A DNA stretch of 63,893 nucleotides, the filler included, from Folioceros fuciformis (taxonomy: Eukaryota): the NCBI GenBank assembly GCA_049999805.1. It is 6 parts of 6 records of this genome, joined end to end, with 100 filler letters (N's around TTAATTAATTAA, not from the genome) between each part and the next. Parts side by side here need not be neighbours in the genome. Positions count along the whole stretch, not along the records: positions 14,602 to 40,412 come from JBNGIO010003189.1; 5 more parts are not named here. One strand, 5' to 3'. Positions 1 to 62,477 of this stretch are shown here, piece after piece. The notes under the pieces were generated by a model, which saw only the letters and a program-made list of their open reading frames with translations, was not told the DNA's origin and ran no database searches. Position numbers and translations under genes: made by a program. Position 1 is the first letter of the stretch. The number at the start of each line of letters is the position of its first letter.

Positions 1-140
1 CGGCTGCAACCCCTGCCTCTAGCTCTAGCTAGGGCATGGCCTCCACAACCGTTCATGCCAGCCAAGCAATCAGCCAGCCTATCGTCAGACCCTGACCCCT
101 GACACTAACATACCCAGATACCCGTTCCTATGTTCAAACC

Positions 141-185
141 ATTATTATATTATTATATTATTATATTATTATTATATTATTATTT
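141..185. repeat. (ATATT)n microsatellite
   Basis: About 8 tandem copies of attat/atatt are visible. Confidence 0.9.
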
Positions 186-476
186 AATCATTTAATATTA
201 TAGATCTTTAATTAATATTAAACTAATCACCCAACCCTATGGCCTGGTACCGAACCTAATCCTTCCCAGCTCTGGGACCAAACCTATACCCACTCTTATA
301 ACCAAACCCACTATTTCCTGGTCAATTAACCCAATTAGCACAAAGAAAAATAGGAAAAATGACCAGAAAATCAAGGAAAATTAGGGAAAATAAGTTGAAA
401 AAGAAAACCAAACCATACCACTATTAACCCTTTTTCAACCAAAACAAACTACTACCCCAAACTTTGGAGGTTCACA

Positions 477-3400
477 GGAGCTCACACCAAAAAAAACCTT
501 CCCTCATAATGACAAGCCTGGCCTCTTATACTCCCTTGGCCAGGAACGCCCTGTCACTACCTAACTAGGTCAGCACGCCTCAGACAGAACTCTCAACTCG
601 TCAAAACCCTAACCCTAACTTCGACCTACTCCTAACCCTAGCTCTAATCTAACCTAACTCTGACCTAACCTGACTTTGACCTAACCTTAATCCACCCTAA
701 TCCTAACCACGACCTAGAAGGGCTTATGCCCCTGGTTGCTCCTATAAAAAATAATCAACCTCTCAAAACTACCAAAAATCGTCAGTGCCTCTCGATACTC
801 TCTTCCTCTCTCTCCGATCCTCTCCTTTCCCTCACATCATGTGCAATTCTTCAGAGACCCCACCCTCTTCAGATCCTTCCCTCCATTCTGCTGGCCAAGG
901 CCCATGACCTGGCAGAGCTACCCATCTAGTGCCCTTGCGTGGGCACCTTGTGAGCTTGGCACTAGAAGCGACAACCCACCATCTCTACCAACATAACCAT
1001 CACTGGGCTTCCCACCTATTAGCAGCACACCTGTACTAGGCTTTCCGCCTACAAGCAGCCAAGCGTGCTGCTCGTGGATGGAAAGCCAAAGGGCACTTAT
1101 GTCATCTGGCTGACCACAGGACAAGAGAGATGCATTACTCCTGACTCCAATACTTGGATGGGGCAGTTCGCAGGTCCCTCAGCTTTGTCTGCATGCATTC
1201 TCCTGGCGGGCTGCGCCCCTTGACTCCGATACCTGGATGGGGCAGTTCGCAGGTCCCTCGGCTTTGTCTGCACTTATTCTCCTGGTGGGCTGCGCCCCCA
1301 ACGTTTGTCCAAGCCACCGTAGCCTCCCTGCTTGAAGCCTGACTCGAGCTGCTTCCCCTCCACCTTGTCCCTGAATCCCCAACTTCTAGCCCCGCCCCCT
1401 TGATCCAATCTCTAGGGGTCTGGTTGGCCCTTTCCACCTCAGCCAGCCGCCGTCTGCTCAATTCTAACCCAAACCCGGCCTTTGCAGCCTGGCTGCTTAT
1501 GCCGTGATTCAGCCAGCCCCTCGACCAGCCACAATCTTACCACCCGCCATCTGCTTGAGCCCCTCGTTCCTGCTTGGATTCCACCGGCACCCTGCTTGTG
1601 ATCCTGCCACCGACTAGCCATCAGCTAGGATATTGATTCAGCTTGCTCGGTGCCGACCCTCATCCTAGCTAGTCAGCCATCCTGCTAAACACAACCCAGG
1701 CCAGCCTACAACACAATCCAAGCTAGCCTACCATGGTTGCCTGGATCCTGCCACCCCGGCCCCGCTCAGCCCCAGCAATTCGGCCAGGCTTAGATTCTCC
1801 ACCAACCAGCTAGTCTACTAGACTGATCCTGGCACCCGCTTGCTCGGAGCGCCGGTCACCTGGAGGCTAGCGCTCCCCTCTGATCCCCTGGCCGACTGAA
1901 TCCGGCCCCAGCCGTCTGGAGCCCTTCCTCCCACGCAGTCAGCCTTCAGCGCCAGGCCGCCTGCACCGAGGCCACACACCGGCCTCCTGCCTTCCCGATA
2001 TAGCCAAGCAGCCAGCTTGCTTGGTTGCTTGGTTCCTGCAACCAGCCACTGCCCAGCTTCCCCAGCTGCCTTGCTGCCTAATCAATCCTGCCCACCACCC
2101 GGTCGCATGCCATCCACTGCCGCTGCTGGTTGCCTGTAGCCCGATCTACTGGGCGAGCTGCTGCTTGCCGGTCCCCATACTGACGGTTGGGCTACCTGCC
2201 AGCCAACCAGCCCCCCACCTCAACCGTCTATCCGTCGTTGCTTCCCTAGATCCAATATACCTGCGACCCGGATTCTGCCCGCCTCCTGGATCAGGCAGCA
2301 TTGCCTGGCTGCCTGCTCCTCAACCAATTGTTGCTAGGCCAGCCACCTACCAGGATTCCCCCCGGCCTGGACTTCCCCCAGCCGCCTGCCTGCCGATTCC
2401 AGATCCAGCAGCTACTGAGCCGCCTGCCGGCCTGAATTTCCTCCAGCCCACCGGCCTGCTCCCGGCGGCTGCCTGGCCAGATCTGCCTGCAGGTTCGCCT
2501 ATCAGCCAGCCGTGACCAGCTAGCTAGCCCAGGCGGATCGAATGCCGCCCGCCTGCCTCCAACCACAACTAGTCCGGGTGCCCAGCCAGGCTGCCTGCAC
2601 CCCGCCTGGTAGATGCATGGCCAGACCCGGCTTCAAGCAGGCACGCCCTATCTAATCCGCTCCTCCTGCTGGACCTAGCCCACAGCCTGCCTGGGTCCAC
2701 TCTAGCCTCATTCGCAACCAGCCGATGGCGGCGCTTACCTGCGGCCTAGATCATGCCGAGGCTCGCTTGGCCTGGATTTCCTCTTGGCCAGGTTCCCCCT
2801 GGCCAGCCAGCCCCTGTTGGCCAGCCACCTGCCAGGCCTGGCTGTTCCTCAGTTGTAGGCAACCCGCAAGCTTGGTTGCTCCTCAACAGCCGGCCGCTTG
2901 TGCTATTGGCAACCTACCTGCCCCTCAGCGGCCGAGCCACTGCTGCCCATCCACCCACCAGGCCGCCTGCCGGCAGGCTAGATCCTCAGCTGCTGCTACT
3001 GCTGCCAGTCGCATGCAGCCAGGCCGCTGCTGGCCCGGCCATCCTCCAAGCCCTTGCTGGCCTGCCTGCCCTCCTAGATCTGGCCAGGCAGCTAGCCCGC
3101 AGGCCTGCTTGCTGCCTGCTGGCTAGGCTCCTCAGCAGCCAACCGGCCCTTGGCCTCCTCCTGGCTCCAACCTGGCTCAGATCCAACATGGCTAACTTGC
3201 CAGCCCCATCCTTAGCCCGGGTCCGGCCCCGGTCTGGTACACCTACGGATCTAGCTCCGCCGCCTGGCCTGGATCCGGTGCTCCCCTGTCCGTGGTTGCC
3301 TGCTTGCCCCGCAACCGTTGGGTTGGCTGGCCAGGTAGCTAGCCACCATCTTGTCTCCTGTCCTGTAGCCGGGCCGAGCTAGCCTCCTGGCCAAGCCCTT

Positions 3401-7934: not shown

Positions 7935-8870
7935 TGTTAATAATAAGGGGTTATTTTAGTATAACCTACCTTAGGGTTAATTAACCATAGTTATGAAAAG
8001 ACACTTTGTATATAATACCTTTTTTTTTGTTGAGTTTAATTAATTGTCATTTTATGCAACTTGTGCACTAGCATCTTTTCTTCTAGCATGGTATCAGAGC
8101 CCATGCATTTTTATCTAGTAGTCCTATGGCTAATTGTAGAAGAAGATTGTCTCTACTTCTATTGTCTAGCATAGAGTGCTACTTAGAGTGTTAAAATGCA
8201 TTTATGCTAGTGAATTTTGTGCAGGATGACGAGGAGAAGGGGAAGCTATTGTTCTTCTAGCTTCAGGCCTTCACAAGGCCAAAGATTGCAGAGAGAGCAG
8301 CAATCCCCACTACAGTCACCTACATTCTACTCTACAAACCCACAATTTCACTGTGCTAGGGGTAGTAGGTGCCCACCTCCTTGCTTGCATCCTGCACAAC
8401 ACAATTCCTACAGAATTGCTGTTGAGAGGGTCAATTCAGGTGCTCGAGATATTCAGAGGCATCTTCTCCAACAAATGAACAACAGGCTGGTTTGGCTTGA
8501 TCAAGTACCTGAAAGAATTGAGGCTTTGGAGGATCGTTTGGGATTTTTGCTGTTAATTTTGCAAGATGTTTCTGCAATAGTTAATAGATTGTATGAATTT
8601 CAAATTGCACCTGCACAGTCTACTTCTAATCAGTCCAATTTTGCTAATTTTCAAGCAAATTTGGGTCATCAATCTAGTTGATACCTTCATATAGCAAAAG
8701 CCACAGCCTGATTTGAAAGGTTGTGATGAAAGGGTGCCTGCAAAAAGCACCAGCAACTGCCAAAGTTAGTTCCTTTTGATTGGTTGGCAGTTAGGGTTTT
8801 GGCCTTTAATACAATCTTTGGCTTATCTCTTTATACAATCTCTTATCGCTATATACAATCTTGGCGAAGA
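7935..8870 (+). mobile_element. LTR element A, 5' part (LTR ~7935-8088, PBS 8089-8100, extra ORF), truncated
   Basis: A TGTTA...TAGCA-bounded AT-rich segment is followed immediately by TGGTATCAGAGC (PBS for initiator tRNA-Met). No gag was recognised downstream. Confidence 0.7.
8226..8681 (+). CDS. Accessory ORF of LTR element A (basic N-terminus, C-terminal coiled coil)
   Basis: Open frame MTRRRGSY...LQQMNNRLVWLDQVPERIEALEDRLGFLLLILQDVSAIVNRLY starts 126 bp after the PBS. Confidence 0.5.
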   Translation: MTRRRGSYCSSSFRPSQGQRLQREQQSPLQSPTFYSTNPQFHCARGSRCPPPCLHPAQHNSYRIAVERVNSGARDIQRHLLQQMNNRLVWLDQVPERIEALEDRLGFLLLILQDVSAIVNRLYEFQIAPAQSTSNQSNFANFQANLGHQSS

Positions 8871-11397: not shown

Positions 11398-14218
11398 ATG
11401 GGTAGTCGGGAAGATGAGGGAGAGCAACTTGATGAAGAAGTCAATATCAACAAGGATCCTATTGAGACCATATCAATGGTTGTCAATAATTATGGAGACA
11501 GCTTCAAAGAAAAGGACAGATTCAATGGCAAGGACTACAACGTATGGCGCCTGTGAATGAGGGGAGTATTGCGTAACTGTGACCCATGGGATATCGTTAG
11601 CGGACCCTTAGAGCGCCCAATTTGGGGTGCTGACAAAAAACGCACTTGGGATGCAAAGGATGAGAGAGCCCAGGATATGATTATCGGTGGTCTCTCTCTC
11701 CATATGGTACGACAAATCAACGAGGTAGGATCCTCCAAAGATATGTGGGACCACCTCGCACAATTATACTCCTCCAAGGATGTTATGAGTTTGATGATTG
11801 CTACTCGTCATTTCCATAACCTCAAGATGAAGGAATATGATATCATCGAACACCATATTAGTGCATTCCGAATGGCAAGATCCCAACTTGAAGTTGCTTC
11901 CAGCTCCAAGCTCTCCGAATTAACATGCTTTGTCGCATTATTATCCTCTCTTCCATCCTCCTATAGATCATTTGTGACAACTCAAAATGCTGTTTTAAGA
12001 ACAGCACAAAAAAATATGGATATGCACGAAACTTTAGACATAAGTGTAAATGAGTTGATTGGAGCACTGATACAAGAGGAATCAAGTCGATGCCTCGACT
12101 CATGAGCTCGCCGACAGCAGGTGATGTTCACAGGAAGGGGCATAGGAAGAGGTCGCGTTCAAAATCGTACTAGAGGACCTCCTTCCACAAGACCTACCAC
12201 TTCCTCTCAAGGCTTCTCTAAAGGAGCTTCTCCGTCTTCTTCCACAACTATAAGAGGTAATAAAAAGATAGGAATTATTTGCAATTGGTGCAGAATCCCA
12301 AATCACATGGAGAAGGATTGCAGAAAGAAGAAAAACGATGAGCCTAGGAAAGAGGCCCCACTTGGCGTACATGTTGCTGTGAAGAAACCATCTTCCTCAA
12401 CCCCTTCTGCACTTACAGTAAGTATGTTTGGCATCTTCCCAGCCTACTAATCAATACTGGTACCTTGACAGCGGAGCTACCTCACACATCTGTTATGACA
12501 AAGACTCCTTTGAGTCCTACTCCCCAACCACTGGACACTAGTCTGTCCTCTTGGGTGATGATCACAACCTCCCAATAATTGGAGCATGTTTATATGTTTC
12601 ACAGGTTAGACTCTACACTTACGTCATGTCCTTCATGTACCAGCCATGTGTAAAAATATAGTCTCTGCCTCTAGTTTATGTTATCAACACAGTATGCAAG
12701 TCATACTTTACGCAGATAGTTGTCTTATTTCATATACCTCCAATAAGTCACATATCATCTGCATAGGCACACTAAAAGAAGGGTTATACAAACTTTCAGT
12801 TAAAGTGGGTCCTACACATTCTATCAATGTAGCATCCTCTAATTCTGCATCACTTAACCACACAATATTGTAGCACTGTCGTCTTGGTCATCCAAACAGC
12901 CAAAAATTAGTACAAAAGTCTAAGGCAAGAAACTTATATCGTACATCCTGCCTCTCTCAAATTCAACACCTATCATGGTGTGAGACTTGTGTCATTACTA
13001 AGAGACATCAAGCTCCCTTTAAGAATTCCTCTCCACAGAGGGCAAAATGTCCTCTAGAGATTGTTCGTACAGACATTTGTGGCCCTATGATAGCTCTACA
13101 CCTTCATTTAGTGGTAGCAGATATTTTATGGCCTTCGTCGACGACTACTCTAGGTTTACTCTCACCTACATTTTAAGTCATAAAGGACATGTTTATCGTT
13201 ATTTCCAAGACTATATGGCATGGGCAGAGAGATCGACGGAGAAGAAACTCAAAACCTTACGTTCCGACAATGGTGGCGAGTTTACCTGCAAACAATTTGA
13301 GGATTTTTGTCGCCTTCGCGGTATTGCTCAACAACTCACTGTTGTTTATACTCTTGAACAAAATGGTGTAGCAGAGAATAAGAATCTACACCTTCAAGAG
13401 ATTATTGGTTGCTTGTTAAATCAAGCAAAGTTACCCAAAGTGTATTGGGCCGAGGCACTCCTCACAGCCACATATCTCATGAATCAACTGCCCACTTCAA
13501 CAGTCCAAGGTATGACACCTTATGAAACTTTTATAGACAAAAAGCCTTCTATAGAACATCTCTTTATTTTTTGATCTCCGGCATATGTTTTTGTCCCAAA
13601 AGCATTAAGAAGAAAGTTTGATCCAAAGGCAGTAAGATATACCTTTATTGGCTATTCAAAAGGAATCAAGGGTTATAAATTGTTTGATCCTTCCACTAAG
13701 AGGCTTCTTTATGCTCGCAGTGTTACCTTTCATGAAAATTCCATGTTTTCACCTTTAGTGGGAGATGTTCTACCTACTCACTCTTCATCTGAAGATATAG
13801 AATCTGAATGTTCTTCTTTTGATACAAGTGACTATATTGTGGATTTTCCTAATCCTACCCTTCAACTTCTCTTTGATAGACCTATCATGCAAGAGGAGGA
13901 TTTGGGCCCTGTATTGCGTCCCGATTCACCTACATAAGATATTGAGGAACCTCAACACCTTGAGGATATCCCTTATGATCAGGATGAACCTCAGGATGTT
14001 TCTTTTGATACAGGCGAACCTAATGGTGACTCTGAGTAGGACTCAACGGACTCAATGCCTTGTGAAGATGTAGAAAATGAGCAACCTACACACTTACGAA
14101 AAGAAAAGACTTACGTACTTGGCGTCAATATTATTAGAGACAGAAGCCATAAAAGTTTAAGCGTTATTCAAACAAAATATATAAAGGAAAGCTTAATCAA
14201 GTTTGGACTAGGAGATGC
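11398..14218 (+). pseudogene. Copia gag-pol polyprotein pseudogene
   Basis: Gag, protease and integrase motifs carry in-frame stops (e.g. TGA 11554, 12103) and frameshifts. Most of RT/RNaseH is missing. Confidence 0.9.
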
Positions 14219-14501: not shown

Positions 14502-14601
14502 NNNNNNNNNNNNNNNNNNNNNNNNNNNNNNNNNNNNNNNNNNNNTTAATTAATTAANNNNNNNNNNNNNNNNNNNNNNNNNNNNNNNNNNNNNNNNNNN
14601 N
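14502..14601. other. Artificial contig spacer
   Basis: N44 + TTAATTAATTAA (stops in all six frames) + N44. Confidence 0.98.
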
Positions 14602-31379: not shown

Positions 31380-32286
31380 CTCCACTTCCTTCCTCCGCCT
31401 TCGCCCACCGGAGACCACACACTCGCCCGCTCCCGATCCAGTCCCGTAATCTAAACAGCGCAATTCAATCTGCACACGCCACGCCCTGACACAACCAGAA
31501 GCGGCAAAGCCGCGAAGCGGCCTGGGCCCCAACCGCTGGCGGTCAGCAGACAGGAACCTGAAGGCCCATCAATCGCAGCAGGTGGGAGCCATGGCCAGCA
31601 CGTGAGGTTACGACACAAAGCCGGCATCGGTCTCGGACCCGACAGCGACTCCCGCCAAGCCGTCCGTTTCCTGGAAATATCCGACGCCCCGGCATGACCG
31701 GCTGCTCACTCCCACTTCACGCTCCCCTGCACATGAAGAGCGTGTCAGTCTACTGGCATGGCGAGATGGCGTGCAAATCCCAACTCCGAAAACAAATCCG
31801 AGCTTGAACTGGCCGAGAGCTTGCGTTCAGAAGTCGGGCCTCTGGCAGGATGCAGGGATCGCAGACCACGGCTGTGCTGATTCCCGTGCGTTGCTGGAGC
31901 AAGATCTGGACAGCTTCCTTGCTGCCATTGCAGCTGACGGCGGGTGATGGGAGGAGCACGAGCCTGCCAGGCCAAAGGACTTTGACACCAGACGAGGGTT
32001 ACGCTTAACCCGAGAAGGTGGTTAATCTGACCAACCCAGTGTGTTCACGAGAGTGTGACTCTTCAACCGACCCTCGCCTTCCTTGACTTTTGCAACGACG
32101 TCTAGGCGAGGAGGGGAATGGCGTGCAAGCTTGCGGGGAGAAGATTCTGTACGGACTGGAGTCGAGATTAGCGAGCAGCGTCCAAGAGGCGGAAGGAACA
32201 GGATGGTGTGAAGGAGATGGAGGCGGCAAGGGCACTTGCGGTGGAGGGAGTGTGATGGTTAGGTGCACGAACCATGTTGTCCGCAA

Positions 32287-33990
32287 ATGATGTGGGCGGC
32301 TTCGGAAATCAGCCACGCCCACGAGGGGAGCCAGAGCCAGAGCCAGAACGAGGGAGAGGGCGAGGGCGAGGGCGGGTGCGAGGAGGGAGCCAGGTTGCTG
32401 AGCTTCAAGGATTCTTTCCTCAAGGAGGAGGGCCCGGCGGAGGAGATCCAGGGGGCGCTCAAGAAATGGCCGTCTCTTCAACAAATCGTGCTGGAACTGG
32501 AGCGGCAGAGCAGGATCGGGGCGTCCATAGCGGCCATGAATCTCATGTACTTCGCGCGCTCCATCGTGTCCACCGTCTTCCTGGGCCATCTTGGGGGGCT
32601 GCAGCTTGCGGGCGGGACCCTGGCCCTGACCTACGCCAACGTCACAGGCTTCTCCCTGCTCACAGGCCTGTCGGGGGGGATGGAGCCCATCTGCAGCCAG
32701 GCGTACGGAGCCCGGCACTACAAGCTCATGGGGCTGACGCTGCAGCGGGGGATTCTCATCCTGCTCCTTACCTGCGTTCCGGTCACCGCTGCGTGGCTCA
32801 ACATCGAGAGGGTGTTGCTGTTTGTGGGCCAGGACGCTGCTGTGGCAGCTGTTGCCAAGACGTACCTCAAGTACTTGCTTCCTGACCTGGTGGCCACATC
32901 TGTGCTGGCTCCGTTGAGGATCTACCTGCGCTCCCAGTGCATCACCAAGCCTATGATGGTGGTGACAGGGGTGGCTATGGCTTTCCACGTCCCTGTGAAC
33001 TACTTCCTGGTGTATGGCCCCTTGAAGCTGGGAGGCCCGGGCACAGCCCTGGCCGCCTGCTTCACAGACTTCATCATGATCGTCATGTTCGTGGTGTACA
33101 TCAGGAGGTCCGGCGTCGACAGGATCTCGTGGACGCCCTGGACAAAAGCCAGCTTCATGGACTGGACCCCGTTGCTGACCCTGGCAGTCCCCTCCTGCCT
33201 CATGACCTGCCTGGAGTGGTGGTGCTATGAGATCATGACCCTGCTCACAGGCTTCCTGCCTAATTCCAGGGAGGCCATCTCCACCATGACTATTGTCCTG
33301 AACGGGGACACCCTCCTGTACGCCATGCAAATCTCCCTCGCCTCCTGCGTCTGCACCCGTGTGGGGAACGAGCTGGGTGCCAACAGGCCTCTGGGAGCTT
33401 ACCATGCTTCGGTTGCCACCTTGGGCTTGAGCATGGGGATGGCGTGCCTGGGCTCCTTCGCTCTCATATGCGCTCGGTCATCCTGGGGCAAGCTCTTCAC
33501 TTCCGACCAGCAGATCCTCATGGGAGTGGCCAAGATTCTGCCCATCATGGGCCTCATGGAGCTGGGCAATTTCCCTCAGACTGTGTGCTGCGGCGTGTTG
33601 AGGGGCAGTGCCAGGCCGTCCATGGGTGCGTACTTGAACGGAGGAGCCTTCTATCTGGTGGGCATACCCCTGGGAGTCTGCCTGGCATTCTGGTTCAAGC
33701 TCGGACTGGTGGGCCTTTGGATCGGGCTGCTGGCTGCAGTCGCCACCTGCGCTTCCATGGCGGTGTTTGCTGTCATTCGCACTGACTGGATCTTGCAGGC
33801 TATGCGTGCCCAGAACCTTACTCTTCCATCCAGGGTGCTTACTGACCCTTGCCAGGACCTGGATAACAAACATGGTGGTCAGCTAGAACTAGCTGCTTTC
33901 GCAGACGAAATCCCTGTCTGTGCTCCGGAGATCAACTACGAGAGGGGATACTGTATTGCAGCCCTGGCTCCAGTACCCTCATCCTACTGA
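32287..33990 (+). CDS. MATE/DTX efflux transporter, intronless clade
   Basis: FLGHLGGLQLAGGTLA, GMEPICSQAYGA, CLEWWCYE, TRVGNELGANRP, GVLRGSARP, FYLVGIP; about 12 hydrophobic segments. First in-frame ATG is at 32287. Confidence 0.96.
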   Translation: MMWAASEISHAHEGSQSQSQNEGEGEGEGGCEEGARLLSFKDSFLKEEGPAEEIQGALKKWPSLQQIVLELERQSRIGASIAAMNLMYFARSIVSTVFLGHLGGLQLAGGTLALTYANVTGFSLLTGLSGGMEPICSQAYGARHYKLMGLTLQRGILILLLTCVPVTAAWLNIERVLLFVGQDAAVAAVAKTYLKYLLPDLVATSVLAPLRIYLRSQCITKPMMVVTGVAMAFHVPVNYFLVYGPLKLGGPGTALAACFTDFIMIVMFVVYIRRSGVDRISWTPWTKASFMDWTPLLTLAVPSCLMTCLEWWCYEIMTLLTGFLPNSREAISTMTIVLNGDTLLYAMQISLASCVCTRVGNELGANRPLGAYHASVATLGLSMGMACLGSFALICARSSWGKLFTSDQQILMGVAKILPIMGLMELGNFPQTVCCGVLRGSARPSMGAYLNGGAFYLVGIPLGVCLAFWFKLGLVGLWIGLLAAVATCASMAVFAVIRTDWILQAMRAQNLTLPSRVLTDPCQDLDNKHGGQLELAAFADEIPVCAPEINYERGYCIAALAPVPSSY

Positions 33991-35123: not shown

Positions 35124-36535
35124 CCCATCACGTTCTTTTTGTTCTCGATACAATTTTACTTACGAAGAAGGACAAACGTTCCAAGATGTGTGAAGCAAGA
35201 CTTGAGAAGAAAGCGGAAGCCATCGATGTGCGGGCCACACTCACAGGAAGGCAGGAATGCGGTCAAGACGGCCCTCCAAAAGGCTCCTGTTGCGCGCCGT
35301 GCGCTGCCTGCATGCAGCTTGGCTCGCATGTCGTGCCAGGCAGAGCCCGCACAACCCCAGCGACCGGCCCATTGCACTTCCATATGCAAGACCTGATCGA
35401 AGCGCATCGGAATCTGAGAGGGCTGAGCGAGCAACTAACTCCACAGTGTGGACGGAATCATAGTTGCGGCGGGCCCAGTCGCGCCGTTCACCCGCATCCC
35501 CAAGCGCTGCCATGTTTGCCCATGTCCAAGTGATGGACAGTCGTGCCTCGATTGGCCGCGCCGGGCCCTAGGGCTGCCCCGAGCGGTAGCCAGTCCGCGG
35601 CAGCGGAACTCGGGGACTCCCTCGCTCGGGTCTCCCCGCAGTGCGCGCCGTCCCAGACCATGATCGAGCGTGTGACATCGGCCGTGCGTTCGAGAGGCAG
35701 CGGATCTGATATGTCGGGACCAGCACCTAACGGTTCCTCCCACCCCGGCGTCCGGCTGCGTCTTCTCTCGTTCCGACGAAGAACGAACTGCGGACTCGAT
35801 TGCATTCGTACGCGGCCGCAAACGAAGGACGGGAAGGCTTTATTCTGTCTGCCAAACTCGAGACTGGTGACCACGTTTAAACACCTTGATCGTCCCGCTC
35901 GCTGGAGCAATTCCACTCTCTACCGGTGAGTGAAAGTCGAAGACGTCTCCCGCCCGGAATTCCGCTGCTCGCACTCATCAGACACCCTCCAACTCCGGCT
36001 CCGGCTCCCGCTCCAGCTCCAGCTCCGGCTCCGCTTCCCGTTCCTGCTGTCGCTGGCTTTGCCGTTGCGCTGGGGTCGCCGCTGTGACATCGCCTGGCCT
36101 CGGGAACGGAGAGCGGCTCTCTTCCCGAGCTCCACGAATCGGCGCTCCTCCTCCCCGTCCAATTCCGCACGGCCGGTCTTCCGCTCAGCAAAGTAACGTC
36201 TTCTCTTGCGTGCGGGGGTCTCGGCAGACGCTTTGGCCAAATGAGGTTGTCTCCCCGCAGCTTTGCTCATTCTGCGCATCTCTAGCTCACAGTCTCTACG
36301 AGCTGAAGGAAGGGAGGGAGGAATTGAGAGGCGGGAGGACTCTGCTCTCTTGCGTGCTTCAGTCCTTGCTTCCGCGAACAAGTTGCTTGTCCGCAATCCG
36401 ATTGGTACGCTGCGGTGGCCTGCTCCGAGTGCGAGAATTTGTCGCTTTGAAGCGCCAAGCGGTTTGCAGGAAATTGATCCTTGTGATCGGGATGATTATG
36501 TTGAATTGCAGGTACGGGAGGTTGTATTTGACGCA

Positions 36536-38817
36536 ATGTCGCTGCACAGGGGCCTCGGTTTGATCCTTGTGACGGCCCTGGTTCTTGTAGCTGTGTCCTT
36601 AGCAGAAGGTGAGTGAGTCGACTCCGTGTGCTTTGCGTGCGGTATGTGCATTTCTTTCATCGCGGATTTTTCTTGCTACTATCCGTTCGTCGCTGGCGGC
36701 TGACATCTCCGAGTCGACGCTTTCTCGAGCAAAGCTTGCTCCTGATTGGGAGGGATTGAGGGAATTTGTGCTGCGGTTAGGGATGAATTTGTTATTTTGC
36801 ATCAGGATTTTTCTTCCATATCTCGCATCCCTGCTCACAGATGCATTTTCACTTCCTTTGGGAACAAATTGCGAGCCGTAGTTTCGCAGGGTTGGCGTTG
36901 TTCTTTTGGTCTCGGTAACCTAAGCTGGCTAACCCGAGACTGTTATGTACCCGGTTTGAGCTGATCATGGTGGCTAGCCGTAAGTGGCAGGCAAACGAGC
37001 ATAACTAACGTGCGATACTGTGTAGATTTTGTGGAGGAGGAATGACCTTTGTTTATGGCTTGCTACAGGACTGCAATGCCAGTCAAAGGGAGTAACCATC
37101 TCCGTCAGAAAGGCGGCGGACGTGGCTCAGCGTCTTCGGCATCCCCCAACCGAGCTGGTCACGCTTGTTGTATTGACCAACCCAGGCCCGCTGCGTCTGG
37201 TAGGCTCCGGCTACAGCTGCACAGTCATCCGCTCCAGATCCGCCGACAACCCGGTAACAGTAGTGTCCAACGACCGGTCGCCCGCACTCTACGTGGAGGG
37301 TGCTAGCCACGTGCTTGTCACAGGGGTAAACTTCAAGATCAACGCATGGAGAGGCTCACCAAAAGGCTGCCCAGCTGTTACTGAAGAGAAGGGCAGTAAA
37401 TACCAGTCCTGCCCGGCTGTGTATCTTTGTACTGTTCACAACGTTCTGCTTACCAAGGTATCATCTCGTTTGAAGACTCTGTATCTTGGAAGATTTTGGA
37501 AATTTGAATGTGATGCATGTGAGTGCTACTGTGTGTCAGTGAGCAGAGAACGTGTGATTTCCAAATCCAGTGGCAAGTCAAGTCTTCGCAGTTCACGAGA
37601 GTGTTTTTGCATCCTGATTGCAGGGATTGATAAATGGCCGTGTGGATCTTTGGCGAGCGGAGTCGAGCCTGGTAGATTCTGTCACCATCAAGGGCTTTGA
37701 GTGGGATACAGGCCTCAGGATAGGGGACAGCGGGGATGGGCCTGCCCACAGGAAGTCTGGTACTGTCATCTCCAACAATGACATCAGTGGGAGCGACAAT
37801 GCCATCTGGCTGCTGTTTGGGGCCGTGGGGACTTCCATTGTGAACAACTACATCCATGAGTTTGGCTTCAGCGCCATCAGGTGTGGGTTGGGGGAGCACA
37901 ATGTGGGGGACTGCATGCTGACCACTATCAGCGACAACGTCATCTACACAGCGCCTCACGAAAGGAAAATCTCTGACAACACGGGCATCTACTTTGGTAC
38001 GCATTGGCTTAATGTGGGGAACTTCTTGAGCTGCAATTACGTTATTGGAGGGGAGCACTGCCTGTACCTGGACTGGGCAAGCTCTGGGATTACTATCGAT
38101 GGTGGAGTTTGTCATCTGAATCTGAATGGCTTGAAGCTCAACAGCGGTCACTCCAACAAAGTAACTAGTTTGATCATCTCGTCGCCAAGTGGGCAGAGTG
38201 GCTGGATCAGCTGTCAAGATTACGAGGTCAACAATTGCCTGTCGGACCCAGGTACTCATTGGGAATCTATGCGGAGACAATTTTATAACAGCGGTACTTA
38301 TCAGAAAGTAAGTATCCACTTGGATGGCACCTGTGTTCGTGGCCAGAGAGCCCACCTTTACAAACGAAAACTGTGAGCAAGTTCTGGTCTGACCACATTA
38401 TACTGCTTTCGTGTGCAGCTGTACCCTTGGTTGAACAACTTCTGCGGTATCAGGAGTATCAACGGCCAGAACTGCAATCCGCGAGGATCTGAACCTCCCT
38501 CGCGGACAGGCTCGTGCAGTGGCTTGCCGACCGCCAACGATATCACATTGACCCTGGTGAATGCAGGCAAATATATTCCCGGCTACAGACGCTGCGAGAA
38601 GGTGACCTGCATTGAGAAGATAAACTCCCTAAAATACCACGAGGTCAGTGGGAACTACCCCAATTTCAACAAAGTAGGCTCATTCGGACACGGAGATGAT
38701 TTTGGAGTTCCGAGGAACTCTCAAGTATACCGCCACGAGCCGAACTTCAAGTCCTGTCCCAAGAGCAACGTTGGAATCAAGGCTGTGCACCCTGACACAT
38801 ACTACGCTCGACTGTAG
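36536..38817 (+). CDS. Secreted right-handed parallel beta-helix protein (GH141-like/pectin-lyase fold); exons 36536-36608, 37069-37457, 37624-38307, 38419-38817
   Basis: Signal peptide MSLHRGLGLILVTALVLVAVSLA; GT-AG introns with consistent phases; PbH1-like rungs TVISNNDI, TSIVNNYIH, TTISDNVI; DNTGIYF and LYLDWASSG motifs; about 515 aa. Confidence 0.8.
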
Positions 38818-39539
38818 GTACTTGGTAAGTGTTCGATATCGAGCTAACACTCGTGCTTCAGTTAATGCCTTGGCAAGTTCAACACTTTCATTCCTCCTTC
38901 TGACATGGGATGCAGGTTCCGAGAAGTGACCAAGAAGACAAATTGAGCTAAGCTCCATCACGCTTCAAGCGCACACCACCCGAGATAGGAGTGCTCAGGA
39001 CAACGGAGTGCTCGGAGATCGGAGAGCATCTACGTTGTGTCATTCCTTTTAGTTGGGCAAGAAACGTAGCCGTCGCTACCTGGTAGTCATGGCAAGGTCC
39101 ATATTTTTATTCAGATATTCAAATATATATATATATATATAACATTAAAACATTGAAAACTTAAACTTTTATGAAGTATCTTCATGATTCAAGGATTTAA
39201 GGATCTATCCTAATTCTTTTATATAATATATACAAAATTAAACAACATGAAGTCATATCATGTGTAATTTTGAGTATGGAAGATAAAAAAATTTAAAGAG
39301 AGTATATTTGATTGAAGTTATATATATATATATATATAGCAAGGTAATATATGAATAAGAAGATTTTGGCTACTCAGGAAGAAGTTTAAGGCCTTGGATT
39401 TTTGTTAGCACTTGTATACATTATTATCAAAAAATGCATGCAAATATTAACACCACTCTAATCTTTAATGAATTATTAGGTTAGCAACCATCTATGGAAT
39501 AGAGACATCATCACGCCATCTTTGACACAAAGTTTTGCA

Positions 39540-40412: not shown

Positions 40413-40512
40413 NNNNNNNNNNNNNNNNNNNNNNNNNNNNNNNNNNNNNNNNNNNNTTAATTAATTAANNNNNNNNNNNNNNNNNNNNNNNNNNNNNNNN
40501 NNNNNNNNNNNN
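40413..40512. other. Artificial contig spacer
   Basis: N44-TTAATTAATTAA-N44. Confidence 0.98.
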
Positions 40513-44753: not shown

Positions 44754-44853
44754 NNNNNNNNNNNNNNNNNNNNNNNNNNNNNNNNNNNNNNNNNNNNTTA
44801 ATTAATTAANNNNNNNNNNNNNNNNNNNNNNNNNNNNNNNNNNNNNNNNNNNN
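44754..44853. other. Artificial contig spacer
   Basis: N44-TTAATTAATTAA-N44. Confidence 0.98.
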
Positions 44854-59507: not shown

Positions 59508-59607
59508 NNNNNNNNNNNNNNNNNNNNNNNNNNNNNNNNNNNNNNNNNNNNTTAATTAATTAANNNNNNNNNNNNNNNNNNNNNNNNNNNNNNNNNNNNN
59601 NNNNNNN
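59508..59607. other. Artificial contig spacer
   Basis: N44-TTAATTAATTAA-N44. Confidence 0.98.
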
Positions 59608-62377: not shown

Positions 62378-62477
62378 NNNNNNNNNNNNNNNNNNNNNNN
62401 NNNNNNNNNNNNNNNNNNNNNTTAATTAATTAANNNNNNNNNNNNNNNNNNNNNNNNNNNNNNNNNNNNNNNNNNNN
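62378..62477. other. Artificial contig spacer
   Basis: N44-TTAATTAATTAA-N44. Confidence 0.98.

What the first reader, a model, noticed from the sequence alone, without database searches (positions are those of the whole stretch)
36536..38817. Intron-containing secreted beta-helix protein resembling bacterial GH141-like enzymes: candidate horizontally acquired carbohydrate-active gene
Seen: signal peptide, 3 spliceosomal introns, beta-helix rungs and many cysteines. The motifs are DNTGIYFGTHW..GNFLSCNY, LYLDWASSG, LYPWL and DFGVPRNSQV...PNFKSCPKSNVG. Recalled knowledge: bacterial right-handed beta-helix proteins related to GH141 have D.GAIY...W..GN.I.YNY, GIYLDD..SG and a C-terminal DF.L..DSP....GF..IP...IG, with the two Asp residues as catalytic candidates. 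Both Asp are present here. It lacks the motifs of plant polygalacturonase (GH28), pectate lyase (WIDH) and pectin methylesterase. Inference: a domesticated, disulfide-stabilised wall or mucilage glycan-modifying enzyme of non-seed plants, possibly relevant to mucilage or symbiont interfaces.
Basis: partly seen in the sequence, partly recalled or inferred. Interest (0 to 1): 0.75.

Follow-up and report, generated by a model that had tools for sequence, protein, structure and literature searches.

The report
Secreted GH141-like beta-helix enzyme gene

Summary
A 4-coding-exon gene (36536-38817, +) encodes a 514-aa protein with a signal-like N-terminus and 18 Cys. All three predicted GT-AG introns, plus UTR introns, are bridged by contigs of an independent run, with no differences listed.

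The fold is a right-handed beta-helix (AF2 pLDDT 86.9 for a homologue, 93.6 for the window's core). Curated Pfam cut-offs are not reached.

Only 128 of 1.84 billion representatives match. All 16 green-lineage clusters among 30 looked up are Zygnematophyceae (Spirogloea, Closterium, Mesotaenium, Netrium). One chytrid and one diplonemid also match. No named land plant or bacterium does. A neighbouring MATE gene places the window in a land plant, probably a bryophyte.

The GH141 idea is partly borne out. The family profile's best PDB hit is BT_1002 (E 0.0033 and 0.026). A GH141-type metagenomic protein bridges the two (hhalign E 2.4e-6; controls score 21 or less against 58). That alignment puts the catalytic Asp523 and Asp564 on the conserved Asp272 and Asp304. 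Fold comparison alone cannot single out GH141.

Recent bacterial transfer into this plant is not supported. An ancient origin, by transfer or not, stays open. The substrate is unknown; a fucose- or xylose-containing wall or mucilage glycan is my guess.

The parts
36163..36192 (+). Most upstream 5'UTR piece seen (inferred)
   Evidence: The 30-letter loose end of an X3 contig at 36293 matches the window here as I read it. GT/AG bound the implied intron 36193-36292.
36293..36404 (+). 5'UTR exon
   Evidence: An X3 contig piece covers 36293-36403 and joins on to 36511/36512. It holds no ATG.
36405..36511 (+). 5'UTR intron, 107 nt, GT..AG
   Evidence: Joint in an X3 contig (table 5). Ends checked.
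36536..36608 (+). Coding exon 1: start codon and signal-like peptide (residues 1-23 = 36536-36604)
   Evidence: First ATG of the known leader. The cleavage site was read by eye, not predicted by a tool.
36609..37068 (+). Intron 1, 460 nt, GT..AG, phase 1
   Evidence: contig skips 460.
37069..37457 (+). Coding exon 2: N-terminal cap and first rungs of the beta-helix
   Evidence: Homologue model.
37458..37623 (+). Intron 2, 166 nt, GT..AG, phase 0
   Evidence: contig skips 166.
37624..38307 (+). Coding exon 3 (residues 155-382): beta-helix core with the conserved candidate active site
   Evidence: AF2 model of this exon has pLDDT 93.6 and pTM 0.92.
37756..38181 (+). Residues 199-340: the stretch that aligns with GH141-type proteins
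   Evidence: hhalign probability 88.9%, E 2.4e-6, 138 columns. Controls.
37975..37977 (+). Asp272 codon (D-N-T-G-I-Y), aligned with BT_1002 Asp523
   Evidence: The column holds D in 76 and E in 4 of 82 family domains.
38071..38073 (+). Asp304 codon (L-Y-L-D-W), aligned with BT_1002 Asp564
   Evidence: The column holds D in 77 and E in 2 of 82, with 3 gaps.
38308..38418 (+). Intron 3, 111 nt, GT..AG, phase 0
   Evidence: contig skips 111.
38419..38817 (+). Coding exon 4 (residues 383-514 plus stop): Cys-rich C-terminal part with the D-F-G motif (Asp476 = 38698-38700)
   Evidence: Asp476 column holds D in 64 of 82, with 14 gaps.
38825..38915 (+). 3'UTR intron, 91 nt, GT..AG
38916..39082 (+). 3'UTR as far as the contig reaches
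   Evidence: X3 contig piece 38915-39082.

Best explanation
This is a genuine, transcribed nuclear gene of a land plant, most likely a bryophyte that the protein databases barely cover. It encodes a secreted, probably disulfide-stabilised right-handed beta-helix enzyme.

It belongs to a small unnamed eukaryotic family that is strongly expanded in Zygnematophyceae. That family is a very distant branch of the bacterial GH141-type glycoside hydrolases.

The likely mechanism is acid/base hydrolysis of an extracellular polysaccharide bound in the groove of the helix. The carboxylate pair would be Asp272 and Asp304, the equivalents of BT_1002 Asp523 and Asp564. His281, Asn292, Lys325 and Asn327 on neighbouring rungs would assist.

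[quoted passage not shown] How that ancestor got the gene (old bacterial transfer or older eukaryotic descent) is open.

Shown: the gene model, its splicing, the fold, the family's range, and the alignment to GH141. Inferred: catalysis, secretion, vertical descent and the substrate. My substrate guess is a fucose- or xylose-containing wall or mucilage glycan.
For: Gene and expression:
- Searches give the gene model. All introns are bridged by contigs of a run from another study, with no differences listed.

Host context:
- The neighbours are ordinary nuclear genes: copia element, WD40, thiolase, HSP20, kinesin, RPL27e, GHMP kinase, MATE, GTPase.
- The MATE neighbour's four best hits are liverworts and a moss at 59-62% identity. 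No alga is named among the 120 rows listed.

Fold:
- AF2 pLDDT is 86.9 (homologue P0017) and 93.6 (window exon 3).
- Structure matches to solved beta-helix proteins reach Z 27.4.

Family range:
- 128 of 1,835,955,588 representatives match at E <= 1e-3.

Link to GH141:
- The A1 profile against 177,635 PDB sequences puts BT_1002 first at E 0.0033. The A4 profile puts it first again at E 0.026.
- The only 2 non-family hits among the 16 of the A2 profile search are P0285 (E 6.5e-5) and P0286 (E 0.019). P0285 matches BT_1002 at E 9.8e-34.
- hhalign of the family against P0285 and P0286 gives 88.9% probability and E 2.4e-6 over 138 columns, with both Asp on both Asp.
- The real score is 58.2. The reversed template scores 20.5 and 20 column shuffles score 13.5-20.1. 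Off-register alternatives score 20.4 and 17.0.

Conservation, n = 82 family domains:
- D272 column: D in 76, E in 4.
- H281: 80. N292: 80.
- D304 column: D in 77, E in 2.
- K325: 76. N327: 77.

GH141 catalytic residues are taken from passages of PMC5593877, PMC12786026 and PMC10154630.
Against: - The direct profile-to-BT_1002 E-values (0.0033, 0.026) are marginal and cover only about 60 residues, ending at the first Asp.
- The bridge rests on two closely related metagenomic proteins (71% identical).
- Fold search does not single out GH141. For the full-length model BT_1002 is first but within 1 Z of a tailspike, AlgE epimerases and NosD.
- For the window's core, an alginate lyase is first (Z 19.5). 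BT_1002 is fifth (Z 18.6), with a chain range (104..568) that does not correspond to the sequence alignment.
- The family appears to lack the beta-sandwich that is inserted in BT_1002's catalytic domain. I infer this from its shorter length and the strand pattern of the model (PMC10154630 passages).
- The tree does not resolve where the window protein sits. It has a long branch on an open backbone, from a quick search with SH-aLRT support only. Vertical descent is therefore parsimony, not a result.
- No activity, localisation or substrate datum exists.
Confidence: 0.6

Rival explanations
1. Ancient horizontal transfer. [quoted passage not shown] It then gained introns, a signal peptide and cysteines. 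It was kept in the algae and in this bryophyte lineage and lost elsewhere. This concerns origin only and is compatible with the mechanism proposed above.
For: GH141 is 98% bacterial (PMC10154630, passage). The family has a narrow, patchy eukaryotic range. Among the named clusters looked up, the only green-lineage members are Zygnematophyceae. The nearest outgroup found is a GH141-type protein whose N-terminus looks like a bacterial lipoprotein signal by eye.
Against: Identity to GH141-type proteins is only 25% over 138 columns, so no donor can be named. A chytrid and a diplonemid also carry family members, which fits an older eukaryotic family or several transfers equally well.
Confidence: 0.3
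2. Recent transfer into this plant lineage: acquired directly from bacteria, or from a zygnematophyte alga, after bryophytes diverged.
For: No named land-plant protein is among the 128 hits, although land-plant proteomes are in the searched collections. The tree does not exclude placement next to an algal clade.
Against: The best full-length identity is only 38.8%, and the end branch is long at 1.04. The gene has at least five spliceosomal introns used in RNA. Its GC3 of 0.64 lies between two neighbouring ORFs at 0.62 and 0.78. It sits among ordinary plant genes. It is not inside any starred algal clade. No bacterial protein comes close.
Confidence: 0.07
3. The family is a polysaccharide lyase or C5-epimerase acting on uronic-acid polymers (homogalacturonan, or glucuronic-acid-rich mucilage), not a hydrolase. 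The conserved Lys325 and His281 would then be the catalytic base and acid.
For: The best structural matches of the window's core are an alginate lyase (6kfn, Z 19.5, rmsd 2.3, 182 aligned), an alginate epimerase/lyase (8ja4, Z 19.2) and AlgG (Z 18.7). AlgE epimerases are within 1 Z of the top for the full-length model. Lys and His are near-invariant. Zygnematophyte mucilage is rich in glucuronic acid (PMC10762512, passage).
Against: No sequence-level signal links the family to any lyase or epimerase: alginate lyase 5z9t reaches only E 1.5-2.7. The only profile hit better than E 0.1 is GH141. Beta-helix Z-scores within 1 of each other are ties.
Confidence: 0.15
4. A non-catalytic, secreted beta-helix protein: a glycan-binding or structural wall protein, or an inhibitor.
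For: No activity data exist. Many beta-helix proteins are adhesins (for example PfbA).
Against: A cluster of polar residues on successive rungs is almost invariant across 82 domains from four algal genera, a chytrid and a diplonemid. The two Asp coincide with the GH141 catalytic pair.
Confidence: 0.05

Closest known systems
GH141 glycoside hydrolases: BT_1002 of Bacteroides thetaiotaomicron (PDB 5MQP), Xyn141E of Clostridium thermocellum, Wf141 endo-fucanases
   Same: Right-handed parallel beta-helix. BT_1002 is the best, though marginal, PDB sequence-profile hit. It is also the top structure match for the full-length model, as a tie (Z 27.4, rmsd 2.9, 310 aligned, 16% identity). Both catalytic Asp align with the family's conserved Asp, at a spacing of 32 residues against 41 in BT_1002, 37 in Xyn141E and 39 in P0285 (PMC5593877 passages).
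   Different: Eukaryotic, intron-bearing and rich in Cys (18). About 490 aa when mature, against 619 for BT_1002. It appears to lack the beta-sandwich inserted at residues 109-295 of BT_1002 (PMC10154630 passage). Identity is about 25% over 138 columns only. No CAZy or dbCAN assignment could be run. Activity is unknown.
Unnamed family of Zygnematophyceae proteins (Spirogloea muscicola, Mesotaenium endlicherianum, Closterium spp., Netrium digitus; 'unnamed protein product' or 'hypothetical protein')
   Same: Full-length collinear homologues at 33-39% identity, and 41-47% over exon 3. They share the Cys pattern, the signal-like N-termini, the conserved polar residues and the C-terminal motif.
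   Different: In the algae the family is multi-copy, partly in tandem arrays, and some gene models hold 2-4 copies. This 63.9-kb window holds a single copy. The window protein lies on its own long branch.
Plant pectin-active beta-helix enzymes (GH28 polygalacturonases, PL1 pectate lyases, CE8 pectin methylesterases)
   Same: Secreted right-handed beta-helix proteins of the wall. Arabidopsis GH28 structures match at Z 23.6-24.7.
   Different: No Pfam match to these families was listed at E <= 1 for the window's exons, or at E <= 0.01 for 47 relatives. They have different catalytic motifs.
Alginate lyases/epimerases (6kfn, 8ja4, AlgG, AlgE4/6) and NosD
   Same: Fold matches as good as that of BT_1002. 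There are weak sub-threshold Pfam NosD and Beta_helix matches.
   Different: No sequence-profile link (E >= 1.5). Their catalytic motifs were not compared residue by residue here.

Membership tests
GH141 (CAZy) | Significant sequence similarity of the catalytic module to a characterised member | tested here: inconclusive
   Family profiles against PDB put BT_1002 first, at E 0.0033 (A1) and 0.026 (A4). Through the GH141-type bridge P0285 (E 9.8e-34 to BT_1002), hhalign gives E 2.4e-6 and 88.9% probability over 138 columns, with clean controls. The window's exon 3 alone finds nothing in PDB.
GH141 (CAZy) | Right-handed parallel beta-helix catalytic domain | tested here: met
   AF2 models. Structure matches.
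GH141 (CAZy) | Catalytic Asp pair equivalent to BT_1002 Asp523 and Asp564 | tested here: met
   Met at the level of sequence alignment only. Asp272 and Asp304 align with P0285 Asp578 and Asp617, and through them with chain positions 528 and 569 of 5mqp_A. I infer an offset of 5 from native numbering, because 569-528 = 564-523 = 41 and the native length of 619 (PMC10154630 passage) fits. The positions were not superposed in 3D.
GH141 (CAZy) | Beta-sandwich inserted in the catalytic domain (a BT_1002 feature; not known to define the family) | tested here: not met
   The P0017 model shows strands running on from residue 81 to 402 with no 190-residue insert. The window's mature protein is about 490 aa, against 619 for BT_1002.
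GH141 (CAZy) | Assignment by the CAZy/dbCAN family model; measured hydrolase activity | not testable with these tools
   No dbCAN library is on hand, and no bench work was possible.
Pfam PF13229 Beta_helix / PF05048 NosD | Score at or above the curated gathering cut-off | tested here: not met
   Exon 3 scores 17.4 bits against a cut-off of 25.9, and 15.8 against 23.6. Nine and 8 of 47 relatives match at E <= 0.01.
GH28 polygalacturonase, PL1 pectate lyase, CE8 pectin methylesterase | Match to the family's Pfam model | tested here: not met
   No such family is listed at E <= 1 for the 3 exon translations, or at E <= 0.01 for 47 relatives.
Unnamed zygnematophyte beta-helix family (this report's A1 profile) | Full-length match to the family profile, with the conserved polar residues and Cys pattern | tested here: met
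   hmmsearch with the A1 profile gives E 3.8e-175, profile positions 9-513 on residues 12-512. Residues are tabulated.

The most novel reading that the evidence does not exclude
The family is the plants' and algae's own hydrolase for their fucose-rich, partly sulfated extracellular mucilage. [quoted passage not shown] If so, it would be the first endogenous mucilage- or EPS-remodelling enzyme family of streptophytes, and a lost piece of the toolkit of plant terrestrialisation.
Probability: 0.15. Interest if true: 0.8.

Novelty: new variant of a known kind. Interest (0 to 1): 0.55.

Why it matters
Known GH141 enzymes cut fucose- and xylose-containing glycans: pectin RG-II, xylan and sulfated fucans (passages of PMC10154630, PMC5593877, PMC12786026). 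Zygnematophyte mucilage is described as rich in fucose, galactose, glucuronic acid and sulfate (PMC10762512, passage). No enzyme that turns it over came up in what I read.

This family is uncharacterised and secreted. It has a conserved active-site-like residue cluster, dozens of copies in Spirogloea and Closterium, and one expressed copy in a land plant. That makes it a concrete candidate for such an enzyme.

It also adds a gene family shared by Zygnematophyceae and a bryophyte but missing from the named proteomes of other land plants. That bears on gene loss after terrestrialisation and on the debate about old bacterial gene transfers into streptophytes.

I found no paper that mentions it. 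In one search none of the 20 listed papers (of 189 holding at least 2 of the 3 terms) has GH141. In one search none of the 15 listed (of 37) has 'beta-helix'. Searches listed nothing on plants or algae with GH141.

Tried and rejected
- Own genome: not held, so paralogues elsewhere in the genome could not be counted.
- Earlier findings of this scan: nothing found by place or by sequence.
- Exon 3 alone against PDB sequences: only chance-level hits at E 0.68 and 1.
- NCBIfam: nothing for the window or for P0017.
- P0116 and P0153: these PKD-repeat metagenome proteins were weak phmmer hits, but they do not match the family profile. Of the 12 distant hits tested, 10 matched and these 2 did not. 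I dropped them as spurious.
- Foldseek against PDB: only generic beta-helix hits at E about 1e-4 with TM 0.3-0.4. 5mqp ranked 43rd.
- VIA-align: BT_1002 is tied with unrelated beta-helix proteins, so the fold does not decide the family.
- Protein Atlas: only generic bacterial Beta_helix/NosD clusters.
P0285 in prokaryote genomes gave 39 pattern matches, none confirmed. A3 in metagenomes gave 209 pattern matches, none confirmed. So I could not build a deep GH141 reference profile or a tree that includes bacteria.
- RNA evidence: no listed holder is on record as RNA. X3 is marked RNA only as a guess. Its intron-skipping contigs are my reason to treat it as RNA. X5 and X6 (other organisms, same study) laid nothing.
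- PDB entry 9rx2, the second profile hit: no paper found.
- Tree: the first run did not finish. The finished quick tree leaves the window's place open. I did not run the careful search or AU tests.
- A MAFFT realignment timed out and was replaced by hmmalign.
Full report
**1. The observation**

The region holds a clean four-coding-exon gene on the + strand. The exons are 36536-36608, 37069-37457, 37624-38307 and 38419-38817. They are separated by GT..AG introns of 460, 166 and 111 nt.

The spliced CDS is 1545 nt. It gives 514 aa with 18 Cys and no N-X-S/T site.

The N-terminus reads as a signal peptide by eye: a basic start, 15 hydrophobic residues and S-L-A before residue 24. No predictor was available.

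The joined protein aligns without breaks across every exon junction with algal homologues.

Independent support came from public reads. One run of another study with the same organism label (X3) holds 0.55 of the sampled words. That is roughly the exonic share of the stretch (my reckoning).

X3's contigs join exactly across all three coding introns. They also join across a 107-nt 5'UTR intron (36405-36511) and a 91-nt 3'UTR intron (38825-38915), with no differences listed. A loose end implies a further 5'UTR intron at 36193-36292.

The run is labelled RNA only as a guess. Contigs that skip GT..AG introns are hard to explain otherwise.

The 166 nt of known leader hold no ATG. The gene is therefore real, transcribed and spliced, with at least five introns rather than three.

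**2. Whose gene is it**

The window is ordinary nuclear DNA of a eukaryote. It carries copia gag and integrase pieces, WD40, thiolase, HSP20, kinesin, RPL27e, GHMP-kinase, MATE and GTPase exons.

The MATE ORF (32263-33987) finds land plants. The best four hits are Marchantia, two Riccia species and the moss Ceratodon, at 59-62% identity. Gymnosperms, ferns and lycophytes follow. No alga is named among the 120 rows listed.

The window is therefore a land plant, most likely a bryophyte whose own proteins are not in the collection. 'Hornwort' is my guess and was not tested.

The beta-helix gene has a GC3 of 0.64, against 0.62 and 0.78 for two neighbouring ORFs. It is the only copy in the window. 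The whole genome was not available.

**3. The family**

Pfam gives only sub-threshold Beta_helix and NosD matches. NCBIfam gives nothing.

An exhaustive phmmer search with exon 3 over 1,835,955,588 representatives found 128 proteins at E <= 1e-3, of which 65 are at <= 1e-30.

I looked up 30 of these clusters:

| Source | Clusters |
|---|---|
| Spirogloea muscicola | 6 |
| Closterium spp. | 6 |
| Mesotaenium endlicherianum | 3 |
| Netrium digitus | 1 |
| Chytrid Podochytrium | 1 |
| Diplonemid Namystynia | 1 |

No cluster is a named land plant or bacterium.

With a family profile, the chytrid (E 6.8e-59) and the diplonemid (E 1.6e-40) are true members. Two PKD-repeat metagenome proteins are not.

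The best full-length identity to the window protein is 38.8% over 500 aa, to a Spirogloea protein. One unnamed 123-aa fragment is 76% identical over 89 aa and diverges 5 residues before the end of exon 3. A close relative therefore exists somewhere.

In Spirogloea and Closterium the family is multi-copy. Neighbouring loci on one scaffold, and gene models holding 2-4 copies, point to tandem arrays.

A quick maximum-likelihood tree (82 domains, 507 columns, SH-aLRT support only) puts the window protein on a long branch (1.04) on the unresolved backbone. It is inside no supported algal clade. This fits descent from the common ancestor with Zygnematophyceae, but does not show it.

**4. Fold**

A full-length Spirogloea homologue (P0017, folded with 47 relatives) gave pLDDT 86.9 and pTM 0.86. 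The window's own exon 3, folded with 54 sequences, gave pLDDT 93.6 and pTM 0.92. Both are right-handed parallel beta-helices.

Foldseek gave only generic beta-helix hits.

VIA-align on the full model ranks BT_1002 (5mqp_C) first: Z 27.4, rmsd 2.9, 310 aligned, 16% identity, model 80-563 on chain 18-616. A tailspike (27.2), AlgE6 (26.8), NosD (26.6) and AlgE4 (26.5) are within 1 Z.

For the core alone, an alginate lyase is first (Z 19.5). BT_1002 is fifth (Z 18.6), and its chain range does not correspond to the sequence alignment.

Structure therefore confirms the fold class and no more.

**5. Kinship with GH141**

The sequence profiles are more telling.

- Against all 177,635 distinct PDB sequences, which include the many solved beta-helix proteins met, the 47-member profile hits BT_1002 first (E 0.0033). 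The next hit, 9rx2, is at E 0.26.
- A 54-member profile again puts BT_1002 first, at E 0.026.
- Both alignments run from the N-N-Y rung to the D-x-A-G-I-Y motif.
- A 24-member profile searched in the 5.8-billion collection returned 14 family members and only two other proteins, P0285 (E 6.5e-5) and P0286 (E 0.019). Candidates were capped at 8000 in that search.
- P0285 is GH141-type. It matches BT_1002 at E 9.8e-34 and 9rx2 at E 8.4e-21.
- hhalign of the family (with the window protein added) against P0285 and P0286 gives 88.9% probability and E 2.4e-6 over 138 columns, window residues 199-340.

Controls:

| Comparison | hhalign score |
|---|---|
| Real alignment | 58.2 |
| Reversed template | 20.5 |
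| 20 column shuffles | 13.5-20.1 |
| Off-register alternatives (slid along the helix) | 20.4 and 17.0 |

The signal is therefore register-specific. It is not generic rung similarity.

In this alignment Asp272 pairs with P0285 Asp578 and Asp304 with Asp617. The P0285-to-BT_1002 alignment carries these on to chain positions 528 and 569 of 5mqp_A.

Their spacing of 41 equals 564-523, and a native length of 619 fits an offset of 5. I therefore take them to be the catalytic Asp523 and Asp564 described in passages of PMC5593877, PMC12786026 and PMC10154630.

Across 82 family domains:

| Window residue | Conserved in |
|---|---|
| Asp272 | D in 76, E in 4 |
| Asp304 | D in 77, E in 2 (3 gaps) |
| His281 | 80 |
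| Asn292 | 80 |
| Lys325 | 76 |
| Asn327 | 77 |

That degree of constraint argues for an enzyme.

The family also differs from BT_1002. There is no sign of the beta-sandwich inserted at residues 109-295 (PMC10154630 passage). The chain is shorter, it holds many cysteines, and it is eukaryotic.

I therefore call it GH141-like. It is probably a remote homologue, and I do not file it as a member.

**6. How it probably works**

The protein is probably secreted and held by disulfides. It would bind a polysaccharide along the helix groove. It would hydrolyse a glycosidic bond with Asp272 and Asp304 as the carboxylate pair. All of this is inference.

Known GH141 activities are as follows:
- An endo-acting fucosidase on pectin RG-II.
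- An endo-xylanase.
- Endo-fucanases on sulfated fucans.

These are taken from passages of PMC10154630, PMC5593877 and PMC12786026.

Zygnematophyte mucilage is described as branched and anionic, rich in fucose, galactose and glucuronic acid, with variable sulfate (PMC10762512, passage). A role in remodelling such mucilage or wall glycans is the most attractive guess, but it is only a guess.

A lyase or epimerase mechanism is the main rival. It would use the conserved Lys and His. It is favoured by the structural neighbours and disfavoured by the sequence profiles.

**7. Origin**

The closest relatives are algal, at 33-47% identity. GH141-type proteins are barely detectable. The gene has introns that are used in RNA, and it sits among ordinary plant neighbours.

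[quoted passage not shown] The chytrid and diplonemid members fit other histories equally well.

I could not assemble a bacterial reference set to test this.

**8. Verdict**

The finding is an uncharacterised, divergent GH141-like family. It is found in Zygnematophyceae and one land-plant lineage, with sporadic members in other eukaryotes. It has an expressed copy here.

I found nothing in print on it in searches (listings only). For the GH141 and algal-matrix papers I read only the passages returned by term look-ups, not whole texts or supplements.

Noticed in passing
window 11557-13934 (+): Pieces of a copia-type LTR retrotransposon: gag (E 6.2e-29), integrase core and the SH3-like domain, in successive ORFs.
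   Followed up: no
window 14502-14601, 40413-40512, 44754-44853, 59508-59607, 62378-62477: Five places each hold two runs of 44 N separated by 12 bases. They look like masked or withheld stretches of a repeated element.
   Followed up: no
window 32263-33987 (+): A MATE/DETOXIFICATION transporter in one 575-codon ORF, 59-62% identical to liverwort and moss proteins. I used it only to place the window among land plants.
   Followed up: partly
window 39100-39350: An AT-rich stretch with (TA)n runs starts right after the last RNA-supported base of the gene's 3'UTR, at 39082.
   Followed up: no
P0125 (Podochytrium sp.) and P0120 (Namystynia karyoxenos): A chytrid fungus and a diplonemid carry true members of this otherwise zygnematophyte family. 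In the tree the chytrid sits inside the Spirogloea group on a very long branch of 2.94. This could be transfer, contamination or long-branch artefact.
   Followed up: partly
Spirogloea scaffolds s46, s47, s174, s2/s152/s118 (names): Family genes lie next to each other on the same scaffolds and recur on three scaffolds as near-identical triplets. Some models of 1000-2077 aa hold 2-4 copies. This points to tandem arrays, and possibly to fused gene models.
   Followed up: no
P0051 (unnamed Logan contig of 7,356 bp): A 123-aa predicted fragment is 76% identical to window residues 289-377. It diverges 5 residues before the window's exon-3 end, as if an intron followed at about the same place. It is probably an orthologue in a related plant.
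   Followed up: partly
PDB 9rx2_A: A solved 717-aa 'Parallel beta-helix repeat protein' is related to the GH141-type bridge protein (E 8.4e-21). It is the second PDB hit of the family profile, including a weak match of the C-terminal D-F motif. No paper was found for it.
   Followed up: partly
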